Assembly: GCA_965232235.1 (NCBI GenBank)
Contig: OZ246960.1
Coordinates: forward strand, 3,948,479 to 4,012,478
DNA length: 64,000 bases
Direction of reading: 5' to 3'
Source: Candidatus Poribacteria bacterium
GTDB lineage: Bacteria; Poribacteria; WGA-4E; JAJDTR01
The number at the start of each line of letters is the position of its first letter. The stretch's first letter is position 1. Positions 6,826 through 62,655 of this stretch are shown here, piece by piece. The notes under the pieces were generated by a model. The model was not told the DNA's origin, did no database searches, and saw only the letters and a list, made by a program, of their open reading frames with translations. A program made the position numbers and the translations under genes.

Positions 6826-6985
6826 AGCGATGCACTCATAATGGCTTAACTGGCAAAACCAAGATGTGTCTGCGATTTTGCTCGGAGAGGATTTTCTGTC
6901 TGAATCAATACTCAATCTGACAAGTAGTTGCGATGATGCAGATATACTTTAGAAGTGCGAAACTCAAGAAAGGGGATTCTGACCC

Positions 6986-7951: not shown

Positions 7952-8103
7952 TCCGTGTTGATCGGTAGCGTCCCATCATCCCTATCGGAATGATTCATTC
8001 AGCAAGCAACACTTTTGTACCGCAAACTGTTAGTTTGCGATCACAATCCATCAGCGGTACACGTTCATTTTTCGCTCTATGACTGGCTTTCCGAGAGTGT
8101 TAC

Positions 8104-8860: not shown

Positions 8861-8872
8861 CCCGCAGGTATA

Positions 8873-22843: not shown

Positions 22844-25800
22844 ATGAATAACGAGACAATATTCACCGTCAAAAAGAAACATCTTGACCTACTAGACGAG
22901 GACACAGCAGTTGAGTTCTTTAGCAAACTGCTATGGGCTGAAGCGAACAGACTTGGTCCAGGAACCTGCAAGATTAATGTGCCGAGCCAAACCAAAATCC
23001 CTGATGGTGGAATTGATGCTACCGTTGACGCAGACCGACTTGCGAAACAAAGCGATATAATTGCCCCTGGCAAAAACGGTTACCAAATCCGATCAGGAAC
23101 TGCCTTTAAGCCGTGGCGGGATGGGGATATTCGGAAAGAACTCTTTAAGAAAGGAAGTCCTAAAACCCCTGAAAAAGAGAACTTAAGAGAAAGCATCAAG
23201 GATTGCCTTGATGAATGTGGTATTTACGTTTTAGTTTGCACTGGAATTGATTGTCTTGTTCCTCCCAACCGGAAAAAGGCCTCCAAACTCATTAAAGATT
23301 ACCTAGAAACGTGTGGTTATCCAAAGGCGAAGGTTGAGGTGTGGAGCCAAAACACCCTCCGTTGCTTTCTTGAGTCGTTCCCATCACTGTCTTTGTGGGT
23401 CAATGGACGCAATAGCGCAAAGTTTCAAACGCATGACAGTTGGTCGCGAGATGCGAGCATGCAACGTCCATTTGTTCATGGAGAATCTCAGGATGAATTG
23501 ATTGAAAATCTTCGGAGTGGTTTACGGCGCGCCGATAATAAGGATCCTATGTTAGTGTCCGGGCGGCCCGGCATCGGCAAGACCAGGCTTGTTTTGGAAG
23601 CAACAAACGCCACAGACCTAGCGCCTCTAGTGATTTACGCCCCAGCTGATCAATTCCTTCATGACAAATTTCTAATGGATGAACTTTGCAACGATGAAAA
23701 CGACTTTTCCGCGATTGTGGTAATTGATGATTGCAATCTCCATAGCCGATCAGAAATTTTGGATAAACTGAAGTATCGTGGTCCGAAAATCAAACTCATT
23801 ACCATCTATAATAACCACGAAGAAGCTGCAGGAGATATTACGCCCTATGTTCCCCAACCTCTAGGCGAGGACCAGATTCGCAGCATCATCGAGCAACATA
23901 CGAACGTCTCCGACAACGAAGACAGACGATGGGTTGAGCTCTGCAGTGGATCGCCGAGAGTCGCTCATGTCGTTGGTTGGAATCGGGCAAATTATCCAAG
24001 GGATGTACTCGCCTCTCTGAGCACCGTCAATATCTGGGAGGGCTATATTGTCTCAGTTGACGATCCAAGTCAGGAAAGAACGGAACAACGCAGACGAATA
24101 CTCCGATACATGGCACTGTTTAAGCAATTCGGTTTTGAAGACCCTGTTGGCGAAGAAGCCAAAGCCGTTTCCAAAAAGATTGAGGAGGCGGATCCCCAGA
24201 TTACGTGGACGATATTTCAGGAAATCGTTGATAACCTTAAGAAACGTAAAATCCTTGACGGAGATTATACACTTGCCATCACGCCGAAAGCCCTTCAGAT
24301 TAAGTTATGGATAGAATGGTGGGATATCTATGGCAGGACGTTTGACCTAGATGAATTTATTCAAAACTTTCCCTGCGATTCAAAATTGGTCGAGTGGTTC
24401 TATGAGATGTTTTCGTACGCATCTGAGTCTGGAGTGGCATTAAGCGCTGTGAAGGATCTTCTTGGCCCAGACGGTCCATTCCAACAAAGAAAATATCTGC
24501 AGACAAACCTCGGAAGTAGCTTTTTCTTGGCACTGACTGAAGCAGCCCCGGAATCCGCTCTAGAATGTCTTAAGAAAACGGTTGAGACATGGGATGGAGA
24601 AACCCTATCGCAATTCGTTGGATGTACTTGCGTAGTATTGGCACTTGAAAAGATTGCTGTGTGGAACCGCCTGTTTACAGATGCTGCGGAATTACTCCTT
24701 GCGCTTGGTGACAGTAGTTTTGCTGGACTCTTTTCGCCGGCACCTGGAGGCGTGGCACCGACGGAAGCGTCTCCGAAAGAACGGTTTCCTATCTTGGAGG
24801 GCGCGTTTGAATCGGAATCAAAAGCAAAACGTGTTTTGGCATTGAAGGCGAGTGATGTGGCTTTAGAATCAAGCTATTTCTCGCGATTTGGGAATCCAGA
24901 ATATCAAGGCTTACGTCAGAAACCCAAACTATGGACGCCTAAAACGGAGGGCGAATTTCGGGAGGCACTTCGCCGAGTATGGAAATTACTAGATAGACAG
25001 CTAGCGCGTTTGCCCAACGATGAATGTAAAAAAGGCGCGGCAATTCTGCTAAAACGTGCGCGCGAGATGGTGAGAATCCCAAATCTGGCCAAGATGGTTG
25101 TGGAAACGGTCGCTACAATTGCAAAAGAAGAATATGTAAATAAAAAACACGTTATTGGGACCATTAACCAAATCCTACACTACGATGGCGACAATATACC
25201 TGCGGAAACCCGAGGACTATGGGAGCAACTCATGGGCCAATTGGTTACACCTGACTTTCATTCCATGATGAGACGGTACGTTGGTATGGAATTGCTTGAA
25301 GACCTCCAACTTGGCGACGACCAAAATTACGTAGATCAGGCGCAACTTCAGATTGAAAAGCTCGCCCAACAAGCCATTAGCAATCCATCACGCTTGCAAT
25401 CGGAACTGGCTTGGCTTGTCACAAGCGAGGCCAAGAAGGGATACAATTTCGGGTATGAACTTGGGAAACGAGACAACGGCTTTTCCTTGCTGCTGACGCT
25501 TCTTAAAGCCCAACGAAACGCGGATGACAATGCAAGTACAGCTTTTCTGGGCGGTTATTTCCGTGCGCTCTTTGAATCGGACGCTGACCGGCGAGAAGCA
25601 CAACTTGAAGCGATGATTGATGATACCAAACTAAAACCGCTGATTCCAGCATTGACTTCCCGGTCGGGCCTTACAGATGAGGCGGGATTGCGTCTTCTCC
25701 GCCTCGCAAGAGATGGTACCATGGGTATAAATGACTTCAAAACCTTCACCTATGGCAAAGCCGTTGACGGTTTGTCTAGTGAAATCGTCACGACGTGGGT

Positions 25801-26644
25801 TGAATTTCTACTAGGCGTCAACGACCAAGCAGGTGCATCAATTGCACTGAACCTTTACCACTGCTACTATATCTTCCAGAAACCAGAACGGGATTTACCA
25901 CTTGATGTGACATTCCGATTGCTTCGTCATCAATCCCTGTTTGAAGGATTAGACGGGTATCAATTCGATTCTACCATGACCGCTTATTATTGGACAGAGA
26001 TAGCCAAAGTCTTCCCGCACCTTGATTCCGAAAAGGAATTGGAACTTTCGGAGTTAATGCTTTCCCATTTTGGCGAGGACGGTTCAATTGTTGGCCCTTA
26101 CTCGCGAACATGCTCGGTGCTTGATGAATTGACGCAACAGTATCCCGCTGAGGTCTGGAAGCAGGTTAGTGGACTCTTACAGAGCCAAGGGCATTCTTCA
26201 AGGACCATTGCTCTAGAAAAATGGCTCGGAGAAGGAGCCTCCTGGGGACGAGAAGAATCTAAACCTGCCCTGCTACGAATCCCGTACAAAATAATCTGGG
26301 AGTGGATTGACGAGGATATAGAAAAACGTGCGTGGTATTTCGCTTATAGGCTGGTTCCTATAACCCATTCATCGGAGGAATGGATGATTTCTATGGTAAG
26401 ATCGTTCCTCATCCGCTACGGCAGTCGCAAGGAGGTAAGAAGCGGTCTTATGAGTAACTATTTGTCTGGAGTATCGTTTGGCCCTGCCAGCTCGCACTTA
26501 CAAGCAAAAAAAGAGAAGCTGCTTCAGATAAGGGACATTGAAGATGAAGATGGCGATAATGTCAGGCGTTGGGTTGATGAATTTGTGGCGGAACTGGAAG
26601 GGGGAATTGGACGGGAAACGATGCGTGAGGAGAGAGAACATTAA
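22844..26644 (+). CDS. STAND-type P-loop NTPase with an N-terminal Mrr-like (PD-(D/E)xK restriction-endonuclease fold) domain and a long C-terminal helical sensor region; Avs-like antiviral protein candidate
   Basis: The N-terminus matches the Mrr-cat pattern (AVEFFSKLLWAEANRLG...IPDGGIDATVD...NGYQIRSG...GIYVLVCTGID). Walker A is GRPGIGKT. Walker B is AIVVIDDCNL. About 900 aa of predicted alpha-helical repeats follow. It has a lower GC than its neighbours. Confidence 0.75.
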   Translation: MNNETIFTVKKKHLDLLDEDTAVEFFSKLLWAEANRLGPGTCKINVPSQTKIPDGGIDATVDADRLAKQSDIIAPGKNGYQIRSGTAFKPWRDGDIRKELFKKGSPKTPEKENLRESIKDCLDECGIYVLVCTGIDCLVPPNRKKASKLIKDYLETCGYPKAKVEVWSQNTLRCFLESFPSLSLWVNGRNSAKFQTHDSWSRDASMQRPFVHGESQDELIENLRSGLRRADNKDPMLVSGRPGIGKTRLVLEATNATDLAPLVIYAPADQFLHDKFLMDELCNDENDFSAIVVIDDCNLHSRSEILDKLKYRGPKIKLITIYNNHEEAAGDITPYVPQPLGEDQIRSIIEQHTNVSDNEDRRWVELCSGSPRVAHVVGWNRANYPRDVLASLSTVNIWEGYIVSVDDPSQERTEQRRRILRYMALFKQFGFEDPVGEEAKAVSKKIEEADPQITWTIFQEIVDNLKKRKILDGDYTLAITPKALQIKLWIEWWDIYGRTFDLDEFIQNFPCDSKLVEWFYEMFSYASESGVALSAVKDLLGPDGPFQQRKYLQTNLGSSFFLALTEAAPESALECLKKTVETWDGETLSQFVGCTCVVLALEKIAVWNRLFTDAAELLLALGDSSFAGLFSPAPGGVAPTEASPKERFPILEGAFESESKAKRVLALKASDVALESSYFSRFGNPEYQGLRQKPKLWTPKTEGEFREALRRVWKLLDRQLARLPNDECKKGAAILLKRAREMVRIPNLAKMVVETVATIAKEEYVNKKHVIGTINQILHYDGDNIPAETRGLWEQLMGQLVTPDFHSMMRRYVGMELLEDLQLGDDQNYVDQAQLQIEKLAQQAISNPSRLQSELAWLVTSEAKKGYNFGYELGKRDNGFSLLLTLLKAQRNADDNASTAFLGGYFRALFESDADRREAQLEAMIDDTKLKPLIPALTSRSGLTDEAGLRLLRLARDGTMGINDFKTFTYGKAVDGLSSEIVTTWVEFLLGVNDQAGASIALNLYHCYYIFQKPERDLPLDVTFRLLRHQSLFEGLDGYQFDSTMTAYYWTEIAKVFPHLDSEKELELSELMLSHFGEDGSIVGPYSRTCSVLDELTQQYPAEVWKQVSGLLQSQGHSSRTIALEKWLGEGASWGREESKPALLRIPYKIIWEWIDEDIEKRAWYFAYRLVPITHSSEEWMISMVRSFLIRYGSRKEVRSGLMSNYLSGVSFGPASSHLQAKKEKLLQIRDIEDEDGDNVRRWVDEFVAELEGGIGRETMREEREH

Positions 26645-26670: not shown

Positions 26671-27210
26671 ATGGCAAACTATCAAGAACTCGCAAATCTC
26701 GTATGGAACGTAGCCGACGATGTCCTCCAAGGCTTATTCAAACCCCACGAATACGGCGACATCACCCTCCCGTTCCTCGTCCTGCGCCGTCTGGACTGCA
26801 TCCTAACGGAAGACGACCGAAAAGACAAAGCCATTGACGTCCACAACCGCTTCAAAGATGGCGTCCCCGAAGAATCCCTGCCCCGGATTATTCTGAACGA
26901 GACGAAATCCAGTTTCTACAACACCTCCCGCTACGACCTCCCCCGACTAAAAGCCGACCCCAACAACATCCGCCTCAACTTCACCAACTACCTCAACGGC
27001 TTCACCAAGGATGTGCGGGACATCATCGAAAACTTCAACCTCGATCAGTTCATTGACCGGCTTTACAACGCAACCTATGATTCTTTCCAACCGTGGACGG
27101 ATGGCTCAGCGCACCATAACGTCCGCAAGATTTCCATAGCGTTTCTGATGCCCGATTCTGGAATGCTCTGCAACGAAGTTACTTCCTCGGAGACAGACTG
27201 TGCTTTATGA
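26671..27210 (+). CDS. DNA N6-adenine methyltransferase N-terminal (HsdM_N-like) domain fragment; probable gene remnant
   Basis: AAGGAAAA RBS 26 nt after the upstream stop. The first ~135 aa match the methylase N-terminal domain (LVWNVADDVLQGLFKPHEYGDITLPFLVLRRLDCIL...FYNTSRYDLPRL...NFTNYLNGFTKDVRDIIENF). No catalytic motifs follow. The last ~45 codons run antisense to the 3' end of the convergent methyltransferase gene. Confidence 0.5.
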   Translation: MANYQELANLVWNVADDVLQGLFKPHEYGDITLPFLVLRRLDCILTEDDRKDKAIDVHNRFKDGVPEESLPRIILNETKSSFYNTSRYDLPRLKADPNNIRLNFTNYLNGFTKDVRDIIENFNLDQFIDRLYNATYDSFQPWTDGSAHHNVRKISIAFLMPDSGMLCNEVTSSETDCAL

Positions 27211-30065
27211 ATCTCAAACATGTACGACACCACAGCGTCAATCTCCTGTCGCACAGGATCTATGGCTGCATCCTTGGCCGGACGCAATGATTGGTTAGAC
27301 AGAACGTCAAATCGCGCCGCTGCCATTTCGAGGATCGCGTCCGACAGTCTGTCTAGGCGCGGGCACGGGATCTTCCTCAAAGCCCCAATCTGCGTCGTCG
27401 ACCGCCCATTTTGCGTCCGTTGACCCTGTGTCCAGTGTACGATCATTCCAAGCGTCGAGTTCCACCACAGCGCAAACGCCTTCCGCACTCGGACATCCTC
27501 ATGTATGAGAGCAGTCCATGCCCGTCCGCCAAGCGCGGGGTGCGCGGTCGACGCAGACAATAGCGCCTGGCTCGTCCACCTAAGATTGCGGGCGTAAAAC
27601 AATGTGCTGACATACAATCTCATCTGTTCGCCCTGCTCCGTCGACCCCACCCCGGGTGGTGCCAATCCCTTGTGGGTCGGTAATACTCGCAGCGAGCGCT
27701 GCGTTTTGGAGGATGCTTCCCACAAAGCTCGATCTACTCCAATCGCATCGGTCTCGCTCGTTACCGGATGAAATTCAAATGCACCTATCGGCTCATTCCC
27801 CTTCGGATGTCCGATTAAGTGGTGCGTTGGTCCCACATGAAAGATGTCTTCAATGGTCCCCATCTCCAATCCCAAAGGAATTGGTGTCCCCGCAATATGA
27901 TCGAGCGTCCCCCGTGTAAGCGCATCGGCGGCCAGTGCCAACCCTCCATGGATTACACCAACCATGTTCCACGGCAATCCTTCACCATTCGCATACATCA
28001 CTGTGATGCACCCAATTTCGCTGTTACCGACGGTAATTGGGTGTGTCATGTTGGTCGCGGTGCACTGCGCCTTCGCTTGCTCAATTGCCCTCGTCACTTC
28101 TCTCGCCTCGCCGTTCCGAGTGCACGGTTCATAAAGTGTCACACAATGCAGCAAAGCACGATCCTTCTTTTGAGGATGCTTGCGCCGCGTTGCAACTAGC
28201 AACATCTCCTCCATCCCAGTGTCTGCCGAAAAACTTGCCTGTTTGAGCGAAGCCCCGCTTGCCGTCGCAATCAGAACAATATCCGTGAATTCCGCTTCGA
28301 CCATTCGCCGCGTTTCCGTCCATGTATCGGCGAAAGCGCATGTGAGGGGTAATACAAACCCAATTCGCCCTGTTCCTGCCTTGACCTTATGCTTGGCTAG
28401 CACAAGAAATGACGCAGCCATCCCAGCTCGCAGCCGCGCGGGTTTGTCGTTCACTAGGACGCCCCATCGTTTCTGACAGCGCTTCCGATCCTCTTCAGTC
28501 AAACCCTTCAAATCAAAAGCGCTCTGGCCGCCGCGTGTCCTAGAATACGGCGGATTCATAAGAATCCAGTCCACGCTGCCGTGACGTACTTCCACGCTTG
28601 ACGCCTCGTGTTGGACCCCACCAGCCCTACCGAGACTTTGCCCGAACAAATCTTCTGTAAACGTAGCCTCTAGATATTCGAGCGCACCAGTCAGTGCTGT
28701 CCTACCACCAACCTTTACCCAGCCAATCTGCGTTTCACCGTAACTTTCCCCTTTCCCTATATTAGCGAGACTTGAGGAAGTCAGGTGCGCTGCAATCGGA
28801 CTAATGTCAGTGCCCCTTAACCCGTGTTCCATCGCGCCGCAATGTAGTTCCGCGACAGAGTCCTCCGTTCCTCCGGCCCATTCATGCAGAGTTTGTACGC
28901 GCAAATAGCCTTCCCTTAAAAGCGTACCCGTACCGCAGGCCAAATCCGCGATAATCGACCGGCGCAGCAAGTCTGACCGGCCCCACTCCGACTCTAGTTT
29001 GTCCGATTGCCGAATCGTTAGACTCGCAAGCAACTCCGCTGTCGCCGGCTGCGTATAGAACGCCGCGCTCTCCTTCCGATCTGAAGCAAGCTTAGGAAAT
29101 AACTCCGCCCCCACGTTTATGTGTTGCCCCAAATCCGCATCCTCAATCATACCCACCGCTTCAATCAACCGTTTGAGAGCTTCGGTCGTTCCGGCACGAT
29201 GAAAGTCACCGCAAACTGCTAGCGCATTGACAGCTGGCTCAAAAATCGACCGCCAGTTGATTTCGATTATTCGCCGCCACGTTTCGACTTGCTCGAATGG
29301 ATTAGGAGTGACACCGGATACCGTCCGAACCGGTGGAATGTCATTAACTCCCTGAACTTGCAGCCGTTGCTGGATCAATAGCGCGTTTAACCAGAGTACC
29401 ATAGTAGTCTGTAATCCCTCCAATGGAGAGTTTTGCCCCACTTGTCCCGCAATTTTCCGTTGCGCGTTCTCGTGGAGAGTCGATTTCAGCGTTTCCGCAG
29501 CTTGTTTCACTAACTGAGCTACCTCTGCTGCGCGGGCCTCCACCACTTCATTAGGCATCGCGGCGGCGGCGATCAGTCGCCTAGCATCATGAACCGTGCC
29601 TTGAATGAACCCTTTAGCTGGCCACCGACGTGTAGTTCCGTCACTCAACCCGCTTTGGTGCAGTGCATACGCAATCTGCTGCAATCCGTCCTTTAACTTC
29701 GCGTATACGGAATCTGCAGAAAGTTCTCGATATTCCTCAGGAATGTGGACCGCCAGAACCGCCAGCAGCGGTCTGCCTCCTCGTGTCGTTTTCTGACCTA
29801 GCCTGTCCTGAGCATCCCTATCGGCATCTGCCGCATTGAATGATGCCTCAATTGCTGCGGCTGGCATCTGCGGGTCATCGATCAAGATATCCGCTCGACC
29901 GGAACTCAGAGTACCCGTCCGTTCTGCCAGAATGTATTCATCAGAATGGCCGAGCCAGCGAGCCTCTGTTTCCGCCAACACCTTGCCAAACTCAATGTTG
30001 AACGTGTGTTCGTGGAGTTTCCCTTTCGATTGCTTAACTAAGTACAGTTGTTCCGTTTCTGGCAT
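27075..30065 (-). CDS. MmeI/PglX-family (Type IIG/IIL-like) N6-adenine DNA methyltransferase, possibly a methyltransferase-nuclease fusion
   Basis: SAM motif I reads ADLACGTGTLL. Motif IV reads WILMNPPYSRTRGG. The N-terminus resembles the MmeI-family nuclease module (EFGKVL...GRADILIDD...AIEAS). A ~490-aa C-terminal target-recognition-type region follows. GC is higher than in the neighbours. Confidence 0.8.
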   Translation of the reverse strand: MPETEQLYLVKQSKGKLHEHTFNIEFGKVLAETEARWLGHSDEYILAERTGTLSSGRADILIDDPQMPAAAIEASFNAADADRDAQDRLGQKTTRGGRPLLAVLAVHIPEEYRELSADSVYAKLKDGLQQIAYALHQSGLSDGTTRRWPAKGFIQGTVHDARRLIAAAAMPNEVVEARAAEVAQLVKQAAETLKSTLHENAQRKIAGQVGQNSPLEGLQTTMVLWLNALLIQQRLQVQGVNDIPPVRTVSGVTPNPFEQVETWRRIIEINWRSIFEPAVNALAVCGDFHRAGTTEALKRLIEAVGMIEDADLGQHINVGAELFPKLASDRKESAAFYTQPATAELLASLTIRQSDKLESEWGRSDLLRRSIIADLACGTGTLLREGYLRVQTLHEWAGGTEDSVAELHCGAMEHGLRGTDISPIAAHLTSSSLANIGKGESYGETQIGWVKVGGRTALTGALEYLEATFTEDLFGQSLGRAGGVQHEASSVEVRHGSVDWILMNPPYSRTRGGQSAFDLKGLTEEDRKRCQKRWGVLVNDKPARLRAGMAASFLVLAKHKVKAGTGRIGFVLPLTCAFADTWTETRRMVEAEFTDIVLIATASGASLKQASFSADTGMEEMLLVATRRKHPQKKDRALLHCVTLYEPCTRNGEAREVTRAIEQAKAQCTATNMTHPITVGNSEIGCITVMYANGEGLPWNMVGVIHGGLALAADALTRGTLDHIAGTPIPLGLEMGTIEDIFHVGPTHHLIGHPKGNEPIGAFEFHPVTSETDAIGVDRALWEASSKTQRSLRVLPTHKGLAPPGVGSTEQGEQMRLYVSTLFYARNLRWTSQALLSASTAHPALGGRAWTALIHEDVRVRKAFALWWNSTLGMIVHWTQGQRTQNGRSTTQIGALRKIPCPRLDRLSDAILEMAAARFDVLSNQSLRPAKDAAIDPVRQEIDAVVSYMFEIHKAQSVSEEVTSLQSIPESGIRNAMEILRTLWCAEPSVHGWKES

Positions 30066-30762: not shown

Positions 30763-31818
30763 ATGAGGAAAGTCGTAATTAAGATGTTAGCACTGTTCGT
30801 GCTATTGAGTGGTGTGGCGCAAGCCAGTGAAATCATCGCCTTTACGAGCACGCGCGATGGGAATTCGGAAATCTATGTCATGGATGCTGATGGAGCCAGT
30901 CCGATTAACTTGACAAACAGTCATGCTGATGATTGGGAGCCAGCTTGGTCACCTGCCGGCAAACAGATTGCCTTCCATACCAGTCGGGATGGGAATGCTG
31001 AAATCTACGTCATGGGTGCTGATGGAGACAATCCAATTAACTTGACAAACAATCCTGCGGATGACTGGGAGTTAGCGTGGTCACCCGACGGCGAACAGAT
31101 TGCCTTCCACACCAGTCGGGATGGGAACGCTGAAATCTACGTCATGGATGCTGATGGAGACAATCCAATTAACTTGACAAACAGTCCCGCGGATGAATGG
31201 AAACTAGCTTGGTCACCCGATGGCGCACAGATTGCCTTTAACACCAGTCGGGATGGGAACGCTGAAATCTATCTCATGGATGCTGATGGAAACAATCCAA
31301 TTAACTTGACAAACAATCCTGCGGATGACTGGGAGCTAGCGTGGTCACCCGACGGCAAACAGATTGCCTTCCACACCAGCCGAGATGGGAACGCTGAAAT
31401 CTACGTCATGGGTTCCGATGGAAGAAATCCAATCAACCTGACAAACAATCCTGCGGATGACTGGGAGCTAGCGTGGTCACCTGACGGCAAACAGATTGCC
31501 TTCCATACCAGCCGGGATGGGAACGCTGAAATCTACGTCATGGGTGCTGATGGAGATAATCCAATTAACGTATCTAACAGTCCTGCGGATGAATGGAAGC
31601 TGGCCTGGTCACCCCAGAGCGCACAGATTGCCTTTAGCTCTAGTCGGGATGGGAACGCTGAAATCTACGTCATGGGTGCTGATGGAGACAATCCAATAAA
31701 CTTGACAAACAATCCTGGTTCTGACGAGTCACCGGCTTGGTTCGATTCTCGTGTTGCAACGGCGGTGGAACCTGCACGAAAGTTGAGCACTACATGGGGA
31801 AGGATAAAAACGAAGTAA
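30763..31818 (+). CDS. secreted PD40 beta-propeller protein composed of seven near-identical 44-aa repeats
   Basis: GGAGG lies 7 nt upstream of the ATG. The signal peptide is MRKVVIKMLALFVLLSGVAQA. The unit ADDWELAWSPDGKQIAFHTSRDGNAEIYVMGADGDNPINLTNNP occurs 7 times. The tail is VATAVEPARKLSTTWGRIKTK. Confidence 0.85.
   Translation: MRKVVIKMLALFVLLSGVAQASEIIAFTSTRDGNSEIYVMDADGASPINLTNSHADDWEPAWSPAGKQIAFHTSRDGNAEIYVMGADGDNPINLTNNPADDWELAWSPDGEQIAFHTSRDGNAEIYVMDADGDNPINLTNSPADEWKLAWSPDGAQIAFNTSRDGNAEIYLMDADGNNPINLTNNPADDWELAWSPDGKQIAFHTSRDGNAEIYVMGSDGRNPINLTNNPADDWELAWSPDGKQIAFHTSRDGNAEIYVMGADGDNPINVSNSPADEWKLAWSPQSAQIAFSSSRDGNAEIYVMGADGDNPINLTNNPGSDESPAWFDSRVATAVEPARKLSTTWGRIKTK
30826..31753 (+). 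repeat. 132-bp tandem repeat array (about 7 copies, >90% identical) inside the PD40 gene
   Basis: Successive units are nearly identical at nucleotide level (gatgggaa(c/t)gctgaaatctacgtcatgg(a/g)tgctgatggaga(c/t)aatccaattaacttgacaaaca(a/g)tcctgcggatga(c/a)tggga...). Confidence 0.8.
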
Positions 31819-35702: not shown

Positions 35703-37595
35703 TTGATGAAATGTTCGCTCTACACCGTTCTTGTGTTGCTATGGGCGCTAGCATCACCCCTAGCGGCACAACCCGTGCACATACCCGACCCAAACCTACG
35801 CACCGCCGTGCGCGAATCCATTGATCTTCCAAATGGCGCACCGATTACTCGTGATGCTATGCTTCAGTTGATTAAGCTTCGTCCTGGAAGCCGCGGCATT
35901 GAAAATCTATCCGGTGTGGAGTTCGCAAAAAACCTCAGAGAACTATCAATCTGGGGCAACCCCATAACCGACCTCAGTCCTATCGCCGGACTGACTAAGT
36001 TGGAACTGCTGTACATGTGGGGGACACCGATTTCGGATATTACACCACTAGCGAATCTGGCGAATCTGATAAATTTGCGTCTGAACTATTGCAACGTTGC
36101 CGATATAAGCCCAGTTGCACATTTGCTTAAACTTGAGAAACTGTCATTAGCCGGAAATGGGATCGCCGACGTTGGACCTCTTGCCAATTTAACGCAACTC
36201 CGACTCCTCAACCTCGAAAACAATGGCATTGTGGATGTGCGTCCGTTGGCGGGCCTGCGTCGATTAGAAACATTAACAATAGAGAACAACCGTATAACAG
36301 ACCACAGTCCACTTGACGTATTGATGTTAGACCACTTTTCACACGACCTCGATACGCCGTGCGACATGGCGCCGCTGCCTTTGGAGCCGCGCATCGAAGG
36401 CAGAAACTTTCCATCTCTTTTCACCGCGTGGAGCGATAAAGATCGGTGGCCAATGTTCGATTTGATTTTTTGCTGTCCCCGGTTCGACGCCCGGCTTCGT
36501 GAAATAGGAGACGGGTTTCATTTCCGCACGGCTCACGCATCGTGGGAAGGGCCAGCTAGCGTGCGCGACGCTTACTTGGCGCGAAATCCAAATATGGTGT
36601 TCCTCCACGGTCTGTCTGTTATTATCCATGAGCTTGACAGCTTGCCCGAAGATTCTCCCTACTGGCTGCGTGATGAGCACGGCGGCATAGTCGTTAAATG
36701 GGGCATTTACGGCTTAATGGATCTTAATCATCCGGGTTGGCAGCAGCGGATGATTGACATCGCGGTGACGATAGACCGGTGTGGTTTGTACGACGGAATT
36801 TTTGTCGACGCATGGGGTAAAGGAGGACATCCTGGACAGGTAGCTATTCTGAAAGGAATACGCGAACGGGTGAGGGACAACTTTCTTATTATGGTCAACA
36901 CGAATTACAATCAAGCACCCGCCTCGGCGCCGTACATCAACGGATTATTTATGGAAACCGTTTTCCCGCAAAGAAAACGCGATCCTGAAGACATTGAATC
37001 GCGGTTGGTTACAATTGAAAATACTCTGAAATGGGCGGAAAGCACACTGCTGGAGCCCCGAATTACGGGACTCTGTGGCGACTACTATAGCGATCAACCA
37101 CCGGACAGCCCGACGAATACGCGGTGGATGCGGGCTATGACTACCTTGGGGCTGACGTTTAGCGACGATTATGTCGCTTTCCCGTTACGACATGGACCTT
37201 GGTACGATTTTTGGAACGCCGACCTCGGACGCCCGGTCGGAGAAACGCTGCAACTTTATGACAGTCGAGAGGGGCTTTATATCCGGGAATTCACGAACGG
37301 TTGGGCGGTGTATAACCACAGCGGGGCGGCTCAGATTGTTACACTGCCCGAGGAAGTTCAATCGGCGGCAACCGGTATAAGCAATACAGATCACCCCGTA
37401 CTCAACCTGGACGGCGACATCTTTCTCCGCATAGAGGCTTCGTTGCCGGGCGATCTTAACGGCGACGGCACGGTTAACATTCTGGATTTAATTATTGTTG
37501 CCGAATCAATCGGCACGGACAAACGCGAGGCTGCCTTGAACGGCGACGGTGTGGTGAACGTGTTCGATTTGGTTTTCGTCGCGAATGCTTTTTAG
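35703..37595 (+). CDS. secreted leucine-rich-repeat protein with a central uncharacterised (possibly glycoside-hydrolase-like) domain and a C-terminal dockerin module
   Basis: The signal peptide is MMKCSLYTVLVLLWALASPLAA. About 8 LRRs of 22 aa are present (L..L..L.L..N.I.D..PLA). The C-terminal tandem Ca-binding dockerin repeats read DLNGDGTVNILDLIIV and LNGDGVVNVFDLVFV. Confidence 0.8.
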   Translation: MMKCSLYTVLVLLWALASPLAAQPVHIPDPNLRTAVRESIDLPNGAPITRDAMLQLIKLRPGSRGIENLSGVEFAKNLRELSIWGNPITDLSPIAGLTKLELLYMWGTPISDITPLANLANLINLRLNYCNVADISPVAHLLKLEKLSLAGNGIADVGPLANLTQLRLLNLENNGIVDVRPLAGLRRLETLTIENNRITDHSPLDVLMLDHFSHDLDTPCDMAPLPLEPRIEGRNFPSLFTAWSDKDRWPMFDLIFCCPRFDARLREIGDGFHFRTAHASWEGPASVRDAYLARNPNMVFLHGLSVIIHELDSLPEDSPYWLRDEHGGIVVKWGIYGLMDLNHPGWQQRMIDIAVTIDRCGLYDGIFVDAWGKGGHPGQVAILKGIRERVRDNFLIMVNTNYNQAPASAPYINGLFMETVFPQRKRDPEDIESRLVTIENTLKWAESTLLEPRITGLCGDYYSDQPPDSPTNTRWMRAMTTLGLTFSDDYVAFPLRHGPWYDFWNADLGRPVGETLQLYDSREGLYIREFTNGWAVYNHSGAAQIVTLPEEVQSAATGISNTDHPVLNLDGDIFLRIEASLPGDLNGDGTVNILDLIIVAESIGTDKREAALNGDGVVNVFDLVFVANAF

Positions 37596-38187: not shown

Positions 38188-38475
38188 TGACGACTGATAA
38201 TTTGACAGGTGCTTGGTTCATTGGTTCGATTATTTGGCACACCAACCCTAGCTTCTCACGCCGCTTTTTCACAACTGCCAAATCTTTCGCATTCTCTTTT
38301 TCGCTTCAGCGGGGCGCTACGTCTGTAGCAAACCGTAAACCCCACTTGCACTCCAGCCTGCGATTACGCGAGCAATGCACGAGTCATCAAGGGAGATCAA
38401 TCGAAGGGACAGATCAACTGAGCGAATAACGCAGCCGGAAGTAAATCCTGTGCCCGGTCTTTGGTTAATCAATAC

Positions 38476-38656
38476 GGCAAACTGCCATTAAATCCTCGAT
38501 TCCCTCCCTCACCGCCCACCACCCCTCCCAATCCGTGAAATCCGTGTAATCTGCGTAATCTGTGATTCAGACCACCCACCACCATTTCCACTCTCACCGC
38601 CGCCCCTAATCCTGCCAATCCAAAAATCACATGAATCACAGTTCAGACAATCCCCT
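38476..38656. repeat. ~180-bp direct repeat, copy 1 (strand-asymmetric, C/A-rich, G-poor)
   Basis: It is ~90% identical to 38881..39069. It contains the short tandem unit AATCCGTG / AATCTGCG. Confidence 0.6.
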
Positions 38657-38788
38657 TCACCAACCACCCCGTCGCCACTCTGCCCCGTCCTCTACAGGTC
38701 GCGATGCCCCACTCCCCCGTGAAATCAAACCGGCGGACAAAGAGCGCTATCCGAATCATCAACCCCGACACAATTCCCATATTCCAAT

Positions 38789-38855
38789 CTCCCCACTGCA
38801 GCGCAGTACAATGTCAATAGAAACGAACGATACCCGTACACGCACTCCAGCGGAG
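38789..38855. repeat. dispersed ~67-bp element, copy B
   Basis: It matches 22324..22390. It lies between the two ~180-bp direct repeats. Confidence 0.5.
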
Positions 38856-38880
38856 TGCAATGTTTTTGGTTTATCCCTGC

Positions 38881-39069
38881 GGCAAACCGCCATCAAATCC
38901 TCAGTTCCCTCCCCCGACTCCCACCATCCCTCCCAATCCGTGAAATCCGTGAAATCCGTGTAATCTGCGTAATCTGTGCTTCAGACCACCCACCACCATT
39001 TCCACTCTCACCGCCACCCCTAATCCTGCCAATCCAAAAATCACATGAATCACAGTTCAGACAATCCCC
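38881..39069. repeat. ~180-bp direct repeat, copy 2
   Basis: See copy 1. This copy has one extra AATCCGTG unit. Confidence 0.6.
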
Positions 39070-39238
39070 CTCACTGGCGACTGCTCACTGGTCACTAAAC
39101 ACTGCATTTCCCACTCTCACCACTCGCCACCGATCACTGCTTTTCTCTCCCCTCCCACTCCCTCTTGTCTTCCCCGCTCTACACTCATCACTCTCCACTG
39201 CTTTTCCCTTTCTACAATGTTAGATTTTTCATTATCGC

Positions 39239-39267
39239 TTGACAAGTCCACCATAACATGCTATTAT
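39239..39267 (+). promoter_or_regulatory. near-consensus sigma70 promoter TTGACA-N17-TATTAT
   Basis: Perfect -35 box, 17-nt spacer, and a -10 matching 5 of 6. It lies ~265 nt upstream of ATG 39533. Confidence 0.45.
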
Positions 39268-39397
39268 TGTAACTGAATTTATCTCGTGTTGACATTGTGG
39301 CATTAGACCACATTCGCGGCGGTTGACCATACGATGAATCAACGCAAGCCGCTGTCAACTGAACTGACTCATAAAGAGAGCCCATTTGAGGCCAAAC

Positions 39398-39438
39398 CTG
39401 TTGTCAATCAACAGTTAGCCTTAAGTGGGCTTTTTTTG
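39398..39438 (+). terminator. leader hairpins plus T7 tract (attenuator-like) between the promoter and the terminase-operon RBS
   Basis: CTGTTG-tcaat-CAACAG, then a short GCC/GGC stem, then TTTTTTT. Confidence 0.3.
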
Positions 39439-39532
39439 TTCCATCTGACCGCTGAACAACTGATTTGCCGGAGTAAATTTTCTGTTGCCGCTTGTGGCTG
39501 TTCATTCACCACCTTATCTTAGGAGTTCCTGT

Positions 39533-40093
39533 ATGAAACACGTTCAAATCAAACTCACGGACGAAGAGCGTGCCGATACCATCTATCAACGGGTCTGGCA
39601 CAATACCACCACAACTGCTATTGTCGACGCCCTTATAAAGGCGCATCCCGAATGGAAGGATGTGCCTCGGCGAATAATCCAAGACGCCACGCGAACCTGC
39701 AATCCGTTCCACAGTAAATTCGCGGAAAAATGGAAGCCAATCTATGAAAGCACTCTCAAGCACTTTCAAGCAGAGCGAGAAAGACACACCCAAGGCACGT
39801 CATTACACGCCTCCATGGCAATTTTTAAGCTAATCGACAAAGTGCTTGAAGGTGTCGATCGCGTCGAATTACAAAGCCCGAATGATGTGCTGTCAATTGC
39901 CCGTAGTATTGCGCCGATTAGAAAAGTCCTAACGCTGAGCATCAGCGCCAACTCAAGTGACGAAGATAATGACGAAGATAATTCCAAGCAAGGACATGAT
40001 GCAAGCGATGCCGCACTGCGAACGCTGGAGAGTCTTGGACACTGTACGCAAGAAGATGAAAAACAATCAAGAAGACGAAGCCGCGATGATTAG
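39533..40093 (+). CDS. hypothetical protein, positional candidate for terminase small subunit
   Basis: AGGAG lies 7 nt upstream of the ATG. Its stop overlaps the terminase large-subunit start (ATGATTAG). It has an acidic, Ser/Asp-rich C-terminus. No direct homology is recognised. Confidence 0.5.
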   Translation: MKHVQIKLTDEERADTIYQRVWHNTTTTAIVDALIKAHPEWKDVPRRIIQDATRTCNPFHSKFAEKWKPIYESTLKHFQAERERHTQGTSLHASMAIFKLIDKVLEGVDRVELQSPNDVLSIARSIAPIRKVLTLSISANSSDEDNDEDNSKQGHDASDAALRTLESLGHCTQEDEKQSRRRSRDD

Positions 40094-41768
40094 GGCGCAC
40101 GCCGGCTACCGGTGGCCCGAGCTTTTCGTCTGGTTGTACATCAGAAACATCAGCTACCGCATGCTAGAACTCAAACCATTCCACATCCAAATCCTCAACG
40201 CCATCAGACCCGGCGAATACGGTAAGCAGATTAACATTCAAGCCCCGCGCGGCACCGGCAAAACCACCCTCGTCAACCGCCTAATCCCCCTATGGCGAAT
40301 CTGCTACAAAGCATTCGATCTCGCCATGGGCCGCCAACCCGAAGAATTCATCCTCATCGTCGGTCGCGACGCAGACAAGGCGCGCCAACGTATTTCCGAA
40401 ATCCGCGAAGTGCTCGAATACAACCCCCTAATCAGACGCGACTTCGGCGACCTCGTCGGTTCTCCATGGACAAAAAACGAAACCGACACCCGCAACGGCA
40501 TCGGACTGAGACCTCTCGGACGCGGTTCCTCCCCTCGCGGCGCCCTCCTCGGCGATGTGCGGCCAACACTCAAGCTCTGCGACGACATCGAAGACCCCAA
40601 GCGCTGCCTCAATCCCAAGCTACGGCAAGAAGACAGAGAATGGTTCATGACCGACTTCATGTACGCCGGTGATCTCGGTAGCACGCATTCCAACACCATG
40701 ATAGTCGATACCGTCAAACACCCCGAATCCCTCTCCGAACACCTCCGCACCCTACCCGGTTGGCGGACGCTGCGGTATGAAGCCGTCCGCGATCCCAAAG
40801 ACATCTACCACCCCACCGCCGAGCACCTCTGGAAAGAGTGGGAACGTATCTACAGCGACACGACGCTCGACGACGAGCAACGCCAACGGCAAGCGCAAGA
40901 ATTTCACGAGGAACACCGCCGCGAAATGGATTCCGGCGTGCAGATGCTATGGCCCGAGCAGCTGCCGTACCTCCAGGTCCGCAAAGAAATCGTCGAGCGC
41001 GGCTACCACAACGTCATGCGCGAACTCCAGAACGACGCCCGCGATCCGTCAATGGCATTGTTCAACATGGATAACGCGCTGACGTTTGCCGTCACCGACG
41101 AAGGCTTTCGCCGTTCCGATGGGCGTGTTGTGCCATGGCACGATATGGGCGGCTTCGTAACATACCTCGACACCATGGGCGGGCGCGATGCCGCCGAAAA
41201 TAGTTTCGCGTGTGCTGTTGTCGTCGTTTGGGAACCGCTGATTGGCGGTCAATCGCTTAACCCCGATTCGCTCTCCGGTGTGAACGGATACATACTGCTC
41301 GCCTGGCTCGACCGCGTCGCACTCACCGAGCAAATGGAGCGCGCCATCCTCCTCGCCCAGCGCGCCGAGGCGATGTTGGCGCCGGCGCATCCCAAATCCC
41401 ACTTCGTTTGCGAACAGCGCCCCGACAAAGACGGCACCATCCGCAAATCGACCGACGATGCCTTCCGTGCCATGAAAGAGCGCCACCGCTTTGAACGTAG
41501 AATCATGTATCACGACCAGCACCAGAACAAAGAAGACCGTATAGCCACCCTTGAGCCAGCCATAGCCAACGGATGGCTCGCCTTCAACGAGCGGGACTTG
41601 CCTCCCGAATTTTGGACCCAGTTTCGCCAATTCCCGTCGGCGGACCACAACGACGCCCCCGACGCCGTCCAAGGCGCGGTACGATCGCGCATCACCACTA
41701 CCGCGAAACAACGCGCCGATCTATCTGCCGCGCGTCGATTCAACCGCAACTCCGTCGTGCGACTGTAA
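40086..41768 (+). CDS. terL: phage terminase large subunit (ATPase plus RNase-H-like nuclease)
   Basis: Q-motif/Walker A region is HIQILNAIRP...QAPRGTGKTT. Nuclease motifs are YLDTMGGRDAAENSFACAVVVVW and FPSADHNDAPDAVQGAV. The start ATG overlaps the upstream stop. GC is high. Confidence 0.8.
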   Translation: MIRAHAGYRWPELFVWLYIRNISYRMLELKPFHIQILNAIRPGEYGKQINIQAPRGTGKTTLVNRLIPLWRICYKAFDLAMGRQPEEFILIVGRDADKARQRISEIREVLEYNPLIRRDFGDLVGSPWTKNETDTRNGIGLRPLGRGSSPRGALLGDVRPTLKLCDDIEDPKRCLNPKLRQEDREWFMTDFMYAGDLGSTHSNTMIVDTVKHPESLSEHLRTLPGWRTLRYEAVRDPKDIYHPTAEHLWKEWERIYSDTTLDDEQRQRQAQEFHEEHRREMDSGVQMLWPEQLPYLQVRKEIVERGYHNVMRELQNDARDPSMALFNMDNALTFAVTDEGFRRSDGRVVPWHDMGGFVTYLDTMGGRDAAENSFACAVVVVWEPLIGGQSLNPDSLSGVNGYILLAWLDRVALTEQMERAILLAQRAEAMLAPAHPKSHFVCEQRPDKDGTIRKSTDDAFRAMKERHRFERRIMYHDQHQNKEDRIATLEPAIANGWLAFNERDLPPEFWTQFRQFPSADHNDAPDAVQGAVRSRITTTAKQRADLSAARRFNRNSVVRL

Positions 41769-60443: not shown

Positions 60444-60590
60444 GTGAGTGTATGTCCGTTCTGAGGGATGGAGAATAATCGGGATCTGTTACGATGGCAA
60501 GTCTCGTCACAATTGCTGCAATCAGCACATGACGTGAGCCTTTTGTGTAATCCCGGTCATGAGGAATCTTTAGACGATCCCCAATCTTGT

Positions 60591-62564: not shown

Positions 62565-62655
62565 ATCTTTCTCCAATTAGGTCAAAACCACTAATTCAGT
62601 TACTATTCAACGGACGCAATAACTCACAATCAATCCCTGTTAATAAAGTCCCAAC

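What the first reader, a model, noticed from the sequence alone, without database searches (positions are those of the whole stretch)
35703..37595. LRR, unknown enzyme-like domain, and dockerin in one secreted protein
True type-I-like dockerin repeats (DLNGDGTVNILD / LNGDGVVNVFD) are present at the C-terminus. The N-terminus is an internalin-like LRR solenoid. No cohesin-bearing scaffold gene is found in the window. This suggests cell-surface complex assembly of the cellulosome type outside the Firmicutes. The central 350 aa (GIFVDAWGKGGHPGQ..., LIMVNTNYNQAP) may be a hydrolase.
Basis: partly seen in the sequence, partly recalled or inferred. Interest (0 to 1): 0.55.

Follow-up and report, generated by a model that had tools for sequence, protein, structure and literature searches.

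The report
Dockerin-tagged LRR glycanase of Poribacteria
This gene encodes an exported protein from an uncultured, mostly sponge-associated bacterial phylum (Poribacteria) that joins a host-protein-like leucine-rich-repeat arm, a fucanase-like sugar-cutting enzyme and a genuine dockerin "plug", and relatives in that phylum carry matching cohesin "sockets" on surface-sorted proteins, which points to an undescribed non-cellulosomal docking system.

Summary
The ORF at 35703-37595 (+), with true start ATG 35706 and 629 aa, encodes a signal peptide, an internalin-type LRR domain (cap plus 7 repeats of 22 residues), a (beta/alpha)8 barrel with a small beta-sandwich (Pfam GHL15), and a C-terminal type-I-like dockerin.

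The central domain is a distant homologue of GH168 endo-alpha-1,3-L-fucanases. Both catalytic carboxylates align (D369, E418) and are 95-98% conserved.

The protein belongs to a large paralogous family. It is found almost only in Candidatus Poribacteria MAGs, often in tandem arrays, with at least 13 copies in one genome.

No cohesin lies in the window. Other Poribacteria do encode many cohesin-dockerin proteins that end in a T9SS-type sorting domain. These were confirmed by Pfam, by PDB profile search and by fold. Some lie next to family genes.

A cohesin-dockerin surface system is plausible, but it is not a cellulosome. No multi-cohesin scaffoldin or plant-cell-wall enzymes were seen, and the dockerin-bearing proteins are LRR, WD40 and glycanase proteins.

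Three things remain unshown: cohesins in this genome, actual binding, and the substrate. The second Ca2+ loop has Ala where about 90% of homologues have Asp.

The parts
35706..35771 (+). Sec-type signal peptide MKCSLYTVLVLLWALASPLAAQ. ATG 35706 is the likely start; the TTG at 35703 is one codon upstream.
   Evidence: Read directly from the sequence: basic n-region, hydrophobic core, A-A-Q c-region. AGGA lies 9 nt upstream of the ATG. The 629-aa database twin P0001 starts at this ATG. No signal-peptide predictor was available.
35772..36338 (+). Internalin-type LRR domain: N-terminal cap (residues 24-54) plus 7 repeats of 22 residues (residues 55-208).
   Evidence: Pfam LRR_4 E 5e-26 and LRR_8 E 2e-8. 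InlA structures match at E 9e-63. 22-mer register shown.
36345..37238 (+). (beta/alpha)8 barrel, Pfam GHL15, distant homologue of GH168 endo-alpha-1,3-L-fucanases.
   Evidence: Pfam GHL15 32.5 bits against cut-off 27. AF2 model pLDDT 90.4. Foldseek top 17 PDB hits are all GH168, E about 1e-11. Family profile against PbFucA gives E 7e-9. hhalign probability 95.6%.
36807..36809 (+). D369 (GAC), predicted catalytic nucleophile at the end of beta4, in the motif DGIFVDAW.
   Evidence: Aligns to PbFucA D184 in both HMMER and hhalign. D184 is named as catalytic in PMC11685898. Asp in 314 of 331 family domains.
36954..36956 (+). E418 (GAA), predicted general acid/base at the end of beta6, in the motif NGLFME.
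   Evidence: Aligns to PbFucA E254 in hhalign; HMMER placed it 5 residues off. Glu in 325 of 330 family domains. It sits at the end of model strand 200-204.
37242..37430 (+). Small C-terminal beta-sandwich subdomain with the conserved motif REFTNGWAVYNHSG.
   Evidence: Model strands at fragment residues 308-362, pLDDT 90 or higher. GH168 enzymes have an analogous small beta-sheet subdomain.
37446..37592 (+). Type-I-like dockerin with two Ca2+-loop/helix repeats: DLNGDGTVNILD-LIIVAESIG and ALNGDGVVNVFD-LVFVANAF. The protein ends right after it, with no sorting domain.
   Evidence: Pfam Dockerin_1 31.9 bits against cut-off 22.9. Family profile against solved dockerins gives E 6e-8 for 2y3n_B. 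Two helices in the model, pLDDT about 70. Loop 2 position 1 is Ala where the consensus is Asp. No CTD by HMM.

Best explanation
SHOWN. The gene encodes a signal-peptide-bearing modular protein: LRR (7 internalin-type repeats), then a GH168-like (beta/alpha)8 glycoside-hydrolase barrel with a beta-sandwich, then a dockerin. It is one member of a large, paralogously expanded family found almost only in Candidatus Poribacteria, with a few dockerin-less copies in Chloroflexota MAGs. Poribacteria also encode many proteins that combine a cohesin, a dockerin and a T9SS-type C-terminal sorting domain. INFERRED MECHANISM. After Sec export, the barrel cleaves an alpha-linked, probably sulfated or amino-sugar, polysaccharide by a retaining double-displacement mechanism. 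D369 would be the nucleophile and E418 the acid/base. The LRR arm would bind a protein or proteoglycan partner, much as the LRR of EndoS helps that glycosidase engage its glycoprotein substrate. The Ca2+-loaded C-terminal dockerin would plug into cohesin modules of the sorting-domain-bearing cohesin-dockerin proteins. That would tether the enzyme to the cell surface in a non-cellulosomal cohesin-dockerin network that also carries WD40 and other LRR proteins. The likely target is glycan of the sponge matrix or of ingested marine material.
For: Domain identities. High-confidence model (pLDDT 90.4, pTM 0.84). GH168 enzymes are the 17 best structural matches (E 1e-11 to 7e-10). GH168 is also the best sequence-profile match (PbFucA E 7e-9; hhalign 95.6%, 24% identity over 217 columns, both catalytic residues aligned). 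The GH168 catalytic pair and the barrel plus small beta-subdomain are described in PMC11685898. Catalytic and neighbouring residues are 95-100% conserved over about 330 domain instances, including representatives at 50% identity or less. Family size and taxonomy: at least 593 clusters at 50% identity; 34 of the 40 family loci, and most of the 79 loci fetched, are Poribacteria MAGs. Tandem arrays of 4-6 genes and at least 13 copies in OZ252032.1. Both dockerin repeats are strongly conserved across the family. Poribacterial cohesins: Pfam PF00963 at 35-73 bits against cut-off 24.1 in L006, L021, L036, L050 and L028. All 120 listed hits of profile A3 carry PF00963 + PF00404 + PF13860/PF18962. Profile against solved cohesins gives E 8e-8. 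The predicted fold matches cohesins in the top 49 PDB hits. Cohesin genes lie within 10 kb of family genes in 6 of 40 loci. Family variants with dockerin plus CTD, or CTD alone, show these C-terminal modules are interchangeable surface-targeting devices.
Against: No cohesin is in the window, and the window's own genome (the 5,626,040-bp contig) could not be searched. None of the 120 listed cohesin proteins is on that contig. No binding test or complex prediction was possible. Position 1 of the target's second Ca2+ loop is Ala rather than the near-invariant Asp, which may weaken one Ca2+ site. The protein has only a Sec signal, so the route across the outer membrane is unknown. Kamke et al. 2014 report that T9SS structural genes were not found in the poribacterial single-cell genomes. 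This leaves the surface location of the CTD-bearing cohesin proteins itself inferred. The 6/40 co-localisation was not shown to exceed chance, and the loci were selected partly through a dockerin pattern. Identity to GH168 is only 12-24%, the GH168-type Pfam model PF03537 does not hit, and the GHL15 substrate is unknown.
Confidence: 0.55

Rival explanations
1. Orphan dockerin. The C-terminal module is a Ca2+-binding stabilising or other-ligand-binding tail with no cohesin partner. The protein acts as a free secreted or periplasmic LRR-glycanase.
For: No cohesin in the window. Dockerin ORFs far outnumber cohesin ORFs in the sampled loci, 127 against 20. The second Ca2+ loop lacks the position-1 Asp. 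Dockerin pLDDT is only about 70. Poribacterial cohesins always come with their own dockerin, which could be their main partner.
Against: Both dockerin repeats are under strong conservation across hundreds of paralogues. Bona fide cohesins are abundant in the same phylum and sometimes adjacent to family genes. In known systems an excess of dockerins over cohesins is normal.
Confidence: 0.25
2. Self-polysaccharide processing. The barrel trims the bacterium's own exopolysaccharide, as PelA (GH166) and GH114/GH135 enzymes do for Pel and galactosaminogalactan, rather than degrading host or dietary glycans.
For: PelA is among the structural matches (5tcb, E 3.7e-7, TMt 0.60) and gives a weak profile hit. 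The GHL families were defined as relatives of this TIM-barrel superfamily.
Against: GH168 fucanases match better in both sequence and structure. There are at least 13 diverged paralogues per genome in tandem arrays. This resembles the multiplicity of substrate-diversified GH168 genes in fucoidan degraders rather than a single housekeeping EPS enzyme. No EPS synthesis genes flank the gene.
Confidence: 0.12
3. Non-catalytic barrel. The central domain is a glycan-binding pseudo-enzyme, and the protein is purely an adhesin.
For: No activity data exist for any GHL15 protein in the held literature. The LRR and dockerin are both binding modules.
Against: The predicted nucleophile and acid/base are present in the target and 95-98.5% conserved family-wide, along with D364, N413 and R477.
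Confidence: 0.05
4. Classical cellulosome component for plant or algal cell-wall degradation on a multi-cohesin scaffoldin.
For: The dockerin resembles cellulosomal type I dockerins. The cohesins resemble cellulosomal type I and II cohesins.
Against: No protein with more than 2 cohesins was seen in 1.45 Mb of sampled loci, and no CBM was detected in the poribacterial dockerin- or cohesin-bearing proteins scanned with Pfam. The dockerin-bearing proteins are WD40, LRR, SBP_bac_5, DUF6259 and GHL15, not cellulases or xylanases.
Confidence: 0.03

Closest known systems
GH168 endo-alpha-1,3-L-fucanases (Fun168A/D/E; PbFucA and Rho5174 of Planctomycetota; PDB 8ya6, 9jof, 8rg3-5, 9f9v)
   Same: (beta/alpha)8 barrel followed by a small beta-sheet subdomain. 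Asp at the end of beta4 and Glu at the end of beta6 align. There is no helix between beta5 and beta6. A C-terminal motif is shared (WYDFWxADLGRPVG against WYPEFDKPLGKPVG). Both occur as many diverged paralogues per genome.
   Different: Only 12-24% identity. It falls in a different Pfam family (GHL15, not PF03537). The substrate is untested. The N-terminal LRR and C-terminal dockerin are absent from the crystallised GH168 enzymes.
Pfam GHL15 (PF14885), 'hypothetical glycosyl hydrolase family 15' (Naumoff 2011)
   Same: Scores above the curated cut-off.
   Different: The match is modest (32.5 bits) and covers only residues 319-534. The family has no characterised member in the held literature.
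Cellulosomal type I dockerin-cohesin pairs (Clostridia)
   Same: A duplicated 22-residue segment with a 12-residue EF-hand-like loop plus a helix. The poribacterial cohesin fold superposes on type I and II cohesins with TM 0.6-0.76.
   Different: The inter-repeat linker is short (6 residues). Hydrophobic IL/VF occupies loop positions 10-11. Loop 2 starts with Ala. The partners are single or double cohesins on proteins that also carry a dockerin and a T9SS-type CTD, not multi-cohesin scaffoldins. The cargo is not plant-cell-wall enzymes.
Non-cellulosomal cohesin-dockerin systems: Clostridium perfringens GH84C/GH33 glycosidase complexes (PDB 2w1n, 2vo8, 2jh2) and the Archaeoglobus fulgidus cohesin (2xdh)
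   Same: Cohesin-dockerin modules used outside cellulosomes. In C. perfringens they assemble host-glycan-degrading glycosidases of a host-associated bacterium. These structures are among the best matches to the poribacterial cohesin model.
   Different: A different phylum, different enzyme families, no LRR, and no T9SS-type sorting domain. The functional parallel rests on my knowledge of those systems and was not tested here.
Internalins (Listeria) and the EndoS LRR-glycosidase
   Same: 22-residue LRRs with an N-terminal cap, as in InlA and InlB. As in EndoS, an LRR domain is fused to a glycoside hydrolase; the LRR_EndoS Pfam model gives weak or partial hits and appears in the precomputed Pfam lists of several homologues.
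   Different: No internalin inter-repeat Ig domain, LPXTG or GW modules. NCBIfam internalin scores are about 90 bits against cut-offs of 1050-1600. The hydrolase is not GH18.
Poribacterial eukaryote-like repeat proteins with a Por-secretion C-terminal domain (Kamke et al. 2014, PMC3909097)
   Same: The same phylum and the same LRR/WD40 expansions. The CTD (TIGR04183 / PF18962) occurs on many relatives, including family members L004, L008 and L037.
   Different: That paper mentions neither dockerin, cohesin nor the GHL15 fusion. The target itself lacks the CTD.

Membership tests
Type I dockerin (Pfam PF00404) | Score above Pfam's curated cut-off | tested here: met
   31.9 bits against 22.9, residues 582-629. 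The family profile hits solved dockerins at E 6e-8.
Type I dockerin (Pfam PF00404) | Two tandem segments, each with a 12-residue Ca2+ loop (D-x-N/D-x-D-G-x-hydrophobic-x-x-x-D) followed by a helix | tested here: inconclusive
   Loop 1 (DLNGDGTVNILD) is canonical. Loop 2 (ALNGDGVVNVFD) has Ala at position 1 where at least 90% of homologues have Asp. Two helices are predicted.
Type I dockerin (Pfam PF00404) | Ca2+-dependent binding to a cognate cohesin | not testable with these tools
   No complex prediction or binding assay was available. Candidate cohesins exist in the phylum.
Cellulosome | Scaffoldin with multiple cohesins (usually plus a CBM) encoded in the genome | tested here: not met
   None in the window. 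In 1.45 Mb of related loci the maximum is 2 cohesins per protein, always with its own dockerin, and no CBM was detected in the proteins scanned. The window's whole genome was not available.
Cellulosome | Dockerin-bearing plant-cell-wall hydrolases as cargo | tested here: not met
   Dockerin partners found are GHL15, WD40, LRR, SBP_bac_5, DUF6259 and Cu2_monoox_C.
GH168 (endo-alpha-1,3-L-fucanase) | (beta/alpha)8 barrel plus small C-terminal beta subdomain | tested here: met
   AF2 model. The top 17 Foldseek hits are GH168. Architecture as described in PMC11685898.
GH168 (endo-alpha-1,3-L-fucanase) | Catalytic Asp (beta4) and Glu (beta6) conserved | tested here: met
   D369 aligns to D184 and E418 to E254 of PbFucA. 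Conservation is 95% and 98.5%.
GH168 (endo-alpha-1,3-L-fucanase) | Significant sequence similarity to family members at family level (CAZy/dbCAN model) | tested here: inconclusive
   Profile-level E is 7e-9 to 1e-8 to PbFucA but only 0.007 to Fun168E. Pfam PF03537 gives no hit. The dbCAN GH168 model was not available.
GH168 (endo-alpha-1,3-L-fucanase) | Endo-fucanase activity on sulfated fucan | not testable with these tools
   Needs a biochemical assay.
GHL15 (Pfam PF14885) | Score above the curated cut-off | tested here: met
   32.5 bits against 27. Most family members carry a precomputed PF14885 hit.
Internalins (class 1, Listeria) | 22-residue LRRs with an N-terminal cap | tested here: met
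   E 9e-63 to InlA structures. Register shown.
Internalins (class 1, Listeria) | Full-length match including the inter-repeat Ig-like region and a wall anchor (NCBIfam cut-offs) | tested here: not met
   About 90 bits against cut-offs of 1050-1600; only the LRR part aligns.
T9SS type A cargo (Por_Secre_tail / TIGR04183) | C-terminal sorting domain | tested here: not met
   The target ends at the dockerin and has no CTD HMM hit. Relatives L004, L008 and L037 do have it.

The most novel reading that the evidence does not exclude
Poribacteria possess a phylum-wide, previously undescribed non-cellulosomal cohesin-dockerin network. Proteins carrying a cohesin, a dockerin and a T9SS-type sorting domain would form a self-linking surface lattice. 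Dockerin-tagged 'eukaryote-like' LRR and WD40 proteins and GH168-like glycanases, such as this one, would plug into it. That would give these mostly sponge-associated bacteria a modular surface for binding and cutting host matrix glycans.
Probability: 0.4. Interest if true: 0.75.

Novelty: new variant of a known kind. Interest (0 to 1): 0.6.

Why it matters
Poribacteria are abundant, uncultured sponge symbionts. Their expanded LRR and WD40 'eukaryote-like' proteins and their glycan degradation have been discussed for a decade without a known way of displaying these proteins on the cell.

Kamke et al. 2014 noted Por-type C-terminal domains on such proteins but found no T9SS machinery. A cohesin-dockerin layer would give a concrete, testable explanation of how these proteins are organised on the cell.

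It would also extend cohesin-dockerin biology to a new phylum, new cargo types and a new anchoring mode. The GHL15/GH168-like barrels are an untapped pool of candidate enzymes for marine or animal sulfated glycans.

No paper in the held library links Poribacteria with dockerins. Poribacteria co-occur with 'cohesin' only in unrelated papers.

Tried and rejected
- **Profile with LRR-bearing members (A1) against PDB:** swamped by LRR hits. I repeated it with LRR-less members (A2).
- **Looking up the source record:** tried with the target and with ArgJ; neither is on record. Cluster look-ups returned no names for any family protein. Taxonomy therefore rests on homologues at 75% identity or less that sit on named Poribacteria chromosomes.
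- **Single-sequence phmmer with a CipA cohesin recalled from memory**, against all loci and the window: no true hit. Cohesins were found only after Pfam scans of large dockerin proteins and an iterated local HMM.
- **Finding a cohesin protein on the window's own 5,626,040-bp contig** via contig length in the profile search: none among the 120 listed. This is inconclusive, not negative.
- **My recollection that Robbins et al. 2021 reported cohesin/dockerin in sponge MAGs:** wrong. The paper has no such terms. Kamke 2013 is not held.
- **Dockerin subtype classes:** I tested whether dockerins of enzyme-type and cohesin-type proteins form separate classes. Identities overlap (0.48 between classes, 0.54-0.62 within). 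The only differences are a DVNRDG first loop and a longer linker in the cohesin proteins. No firm subtype claim is made.
- **Co-localisation of cohesin and family genes (6 of 40 loci):** not claimed as enrichment. Background density is unknown and locus selection was biased.
- **Nearby sequence features:** Rfam, tandem-repeat and promoter/terminator scans around the gene gave nothing informative.
- **HMMER's placement of the acid/base Glu:** it was 5 residues off. The hhalign placement agrees with the strand ends in the model, so I adopted it.
Full report
**1. The observation**

The ORF is real and intact: 35703..37595 on the + strand, 630 aa counted from a TTG. The next codon is ATG (35706), preceded by AGGA at a proper distance. 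The database twin P0001 is the 629-aa product, so ATG 35706 is the likely start.

- Pfam finds LRR_4 (E 5e-26) and LRR_8.
- It finds GHL15 (PF14885) at 32.5 bits against a cut-off of 27, residues 319-534.
- It finds Dockerin_1 at 31.9 bits against a cut-off of 22.9, residues 582-629.

The N-terminal 22 residues (MKCSLYTVLVLLWALASPLAAQ) look like a Sec signal peptide. This is read from the sequence; no predictor was available.

Both quoted Ca2+ loops are present.

**2. Anatomy**

*LRR domain.* It has a cap (residues 24-54) and seven 22-residue repeats (55-208). These match internalin A and B structures at E down to 9e-63. NCBIfam internalin models score about 90 bits against cut-offs of 1050-1600. 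It is therefore an internalin-type LRR, not an internalin.

*Central domain model.* An AlphaFold2 model of residues 215-630, built on a 41-sequence alignment, has pLDDT 90.4 and pTM 0.84. It shows a (beta/alpha)8 barrel, a small beta-sandwich (residues about 514-576) and two dockerin helices with pLDDT about 70.

*Structural matches.* Against the PDB, the 17 best matches are all GH168 endo-alpha-1,3-L-fucanases (E 1e-11 to 7e-10, TM 0.5-0.6). These are Fun168A/D/E, PbFucA, Rho5174 and the Muricauda enzyme. GH13 amylases, PelA (GH166), GH66 and GH31 follow.

*Sequence matches.* A profile of LRR-less family members hits PbFucA at E 7e-9 and solved dockerins at E 6e-8.

*Catalytic residues.* The Planctomycetota fucanase paper gives the GH168 architecture as a barrel plus a small beta subdomain. 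It names the catalytic pair as D184/E254 in PbFucA, equivalent to D206/E264 in Fun168A (PMC11685898).

hhalign of the family profile against the PbFucA segment gives 95.6% probability. It aligns D369 (motif DGIFVDAW) with D184 and E418 (motif NGLFME) with E254. It also shows a shared C-terminal motif, WYDFWxADLGRPVG against WYPEFDKPLGKPVG.

In the model, D369 ends beta4 and E418 ends beta6, with no helix between beta5 and beta6, as in GH168.

Conservation across about 330 domain instances, including representatives at 50% identity or less:

| Residue | Conservation |
|---|---|
| D369 | 95% |
| E418 | 98.5% |
| D364 | 98.5% |
| N413 | 99.7% |
| R477 | 100% |

The central domain is therefore a predicted active, retaining glycanase. 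It is distantly related to GH168 and formally falls in the uncharacterised Pfam family GHL15.

**3. The family and its host**

- A search with residues 215-630 returned at least 2470 proteins. The listed 120 have the same architecture, with or without the LRR, and several share a contig.
- A filter-free search with the barrel alone found 593 clusters at 50% identity (397 at E 1e-10 or better) among 1.84 billion representatives.
- In one-genome-per-species contigs, 34 of the 40 loci that hold a family gene are from 'Candidatus Poribacteria' MAGs, and four more are from Chloroflexota MAGs. Many isolate labels resemble those of published sponge and coral metagenome bins. This is my reading of the labels and was not checked.
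- The Chloroflexota copies lack the dockerin.
- The window's genome is not in that set. Homologues at 75% and 48% identity sit on named Poribacteria chromosomes (OZ242354.1, OZ240209.1). The window is therefore almost certainly poribacterial.
- Family genes often form tandem arrays: L007 has six dockerin genes in a row, and L009 and L012 have four each. At least 13 copies lie on chromosome OZ252032.1.
- In the window the gene is solitary. It sits between an unknown 227-aa membrane-anchored ORF and a DUF805 membrane protein.

**4. Dockerin and the cohesin question**

Both dockerin repeats are almost invariant across the family, which argues for a conserved function. The target deviates at one point: the second loop begins with Ala (AALNGDG) where at least 90% of homologues have Asp (ADVNGDG). 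This may weaken one Ca2+ site.

No cohesin is in the window. This rests on Pfam scans of nearly all ORFs of at least 150 aa and on a six-frame scan with a poribacterial cohesin HMM.

In the 79 fetched loci (1.45 Mb), 127 ORFs carry dockerins. These include WD40 propellers, an SBP_bac_5 solute-binding protein, DUF6259 proteins and a Cu2-monooxygenase-like protein.

Many have, after the dockerin, a helical linker and a domain beginning NYPNPFNPETWIPY. This is FlgD_ig / Por_Secre_tail, the T9SS type A sorting domain.

Pfam found Cohesin (PF00963) above cut-off in all five poribacterial proteins tested:

| Protein | Cohesin score (cut-off 24.1 bits) |
|---|---|
| L006 | 40.9 bits |
| L021 | 35.7 bits |
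| L036 | 73.2 bits (two cohesin modules) |
| L050 | 34.6 bits |
| L028 | 46.2 bits |

In each case the order is cohesin, dockerin, sorting domain. The large ones also have an N-terminal PSCyt1 cytochrome-like domain and LRRs.

Further support for the cohesins:

- A profile of this C-terminal cassette found at least 7594 proteins at E 1e-10 or better. This total includes some dockerin-plus-CTD-only proteins.
- All 120 listed hits carry PF00963 + PF00404 + PF13860/PF18962. The only source name is 'T9SS type A sorting domain-containing protein [Candidatus Poribacteria bacterium]'.
- The same profile hits solved cohesins at E 8e-8.
- An AF2 model of one member (pLDDT 73) has cohesins as its top 49 PDB matches, with TM 0.6-0.76. 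These include non-cellulosomal cohesins from C. perfringens and Archaeoglobus.

Cohesin genes lie within 10 kb of family genes in 6 of 40 family loci. I do not claim this exceeds chance.

Family variants with dockerin plus sorting domain (L004, L008, L037), or with the sorting domain alone, exist.

**5. Mechanism (inference)**

The protein is exported by Sec. The barrel hydrolyses an alpha-linked polysaccharide by double displacement, with D369 as nucleophile and E418 as acid/base.

The nearest characterised relatives cut sulfated alpha-1,3-fucans. More distant relatives cut alpha-1,4-GalN/GalNAc polymers. The substrate is most likely a sulfated or amino-sugar glycan of sponge matrix or marine detritus. 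Confidence in this is low and it was not tested.

The LRR arm probably binds a protein partner, as in EndoS-type LRR-glycosidases.

The dockerin most plausibly plugs into cohesins of the cohesin-dockerin-sorting-domain proteins and so tethers the enzyme at the cell surface. Because those anchors carry both modules, they could also link to each other.

Weak points:

- Binding is untested.
- Cohesins in this particular genome are unverified.
- The loop-2 Ala may weaken Ca2+ binding.
- The route across the outer membrane is unknown. Kamke et al. 2014 found Por-type C-terminal domains on poribacterial WD40 and LRR proteins but no T9SS structural genes.

**6. Comparison and novelty**

Each module belongs to a known family. 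Non-cellulosomal cohesin-dockerin pairs are also known, for example the C. perfringens glycosidase complexes and the Archaeoglobus cohesin, both among the matches.

What is new is the combination and its setting:

- a large poribacterial expansion of LRR + GH168-like barrel + dockerin proteins;
- an equally large set of cohesin-dockerin proteins with T9SS-type tails;
- dockerins on 'eukaryote-like' WD40 and LRR proteins.

No paper in the held library links Poribacteria with dockerins, and Poribacteria co-occur with 'cohesin' only in unrelated papers. The two key genomic papers that I could read do not mention them.

It is not a cellulosome. There is no multi-cohesin scaffoldin, no CBM was detected in the proteins scanned, and there is no plant-cell-wall cargo.

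I rate it a new variant of a known kind.

**7. Verdict**

The single gene is an ordinary member of its family, but the family and the cohesin-dockerin system it points to appear unstudied and are directly testable. Interest: 0.6.

Noticed in passing
window 39957-41768 (+), with overlapping ORF 39485-40093 (+): A phage terminase large subunit (phrog_38, E 6e-53; no Pfam hit) lies 2.4 kb downstream of the target. No other recognisable phage genes surround it, and an ABC sugar transporter follows at 42501. It is possibly a prophage remnant.
   Followed up: partly
window 59-9883 (+) and 30763-31818 (+): A tandem array of nine PD40 (TolB-like beta-propeller) paralogues, interrupted by one Laminin_G_3 / concanavalin-like ORF (3806-4783). 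A tenth PD40 gene lies at 30763. This is another repeat-protein expansion typical of the lineage.
   Followed up: partly
window 38200-39450: A C-rich stretch (GC skew -0.245 in the 38-40 kb bin) whose only ORFs, overlapping and low-complexity, were not scanned against Pfam. No Rfam hit. It holds a short 9-bp tandem repeat, AATCCGTGA x3.4, at 38935-38965. Unexplained.
   Followed up: partly
window 22844-26644 (+) and 27075-30065 (-): Two very large ORFs (1266 and 996 aa) with no significant Pfam or PHROG family. The only hit is a weak AAA_16 match below cut-off in the first.
   Followed up: no
window 58452-62576 (-): Two adjacent paralogous B12-binding radical-SAM proteins with DUF4070, next to an ECF/CbiQ-type transporter and a duplicated ABC ATPase.
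   Followed up: no
L006:930-5150 (-), L021:11543-15583 (+), L050:9248-10642 (+): Poribacterial cohesin-dockerin-CTD proteins begin with a Planctomycete-type cytochrome c domain (PSCyt1 / Cytochrome_CBB3). The large ones also contain LRRs. This domain mix for a cohesin protein is unusual and unexplained.
   Followed up: partly
L052:9917-11638 (+), L048:7102-8718 (+): Dockerins sit at the N-terminus (residues about 31-90) of an SBP_bac_5 solute-binding protein and of a Cu2_monoox_C-like protein. This suggests dockerin tagging extends to nutrient-capture and redox proteins.
   Followed up: no
L007:11274-15093 (+), L001:13870-16728 (+): DUF6259 + dockerin genes are interleaved with the GHL15-dockerin genes in the same tandem arrays. 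They may be a second dockerin-tagged enzyme family.
   Followed up: no
L025, L030, L031, L032 (Chloroflexota MAGs): Homologues of the GHL15-like barrel (34-35% identity, residues 3-362) occur in Chloroflexota MAGs without the dockerin. Possible lateral transfer between co-resident symbionts.
   Followed up: no
L065:1-4133 (Bathyarchaeia contig): Four consecutive ORFs each carry a cohesin-like module, the first also with a dockerin, on an archaeal MAG contig that the dockerin pattern pulled in.
   Followed up: no
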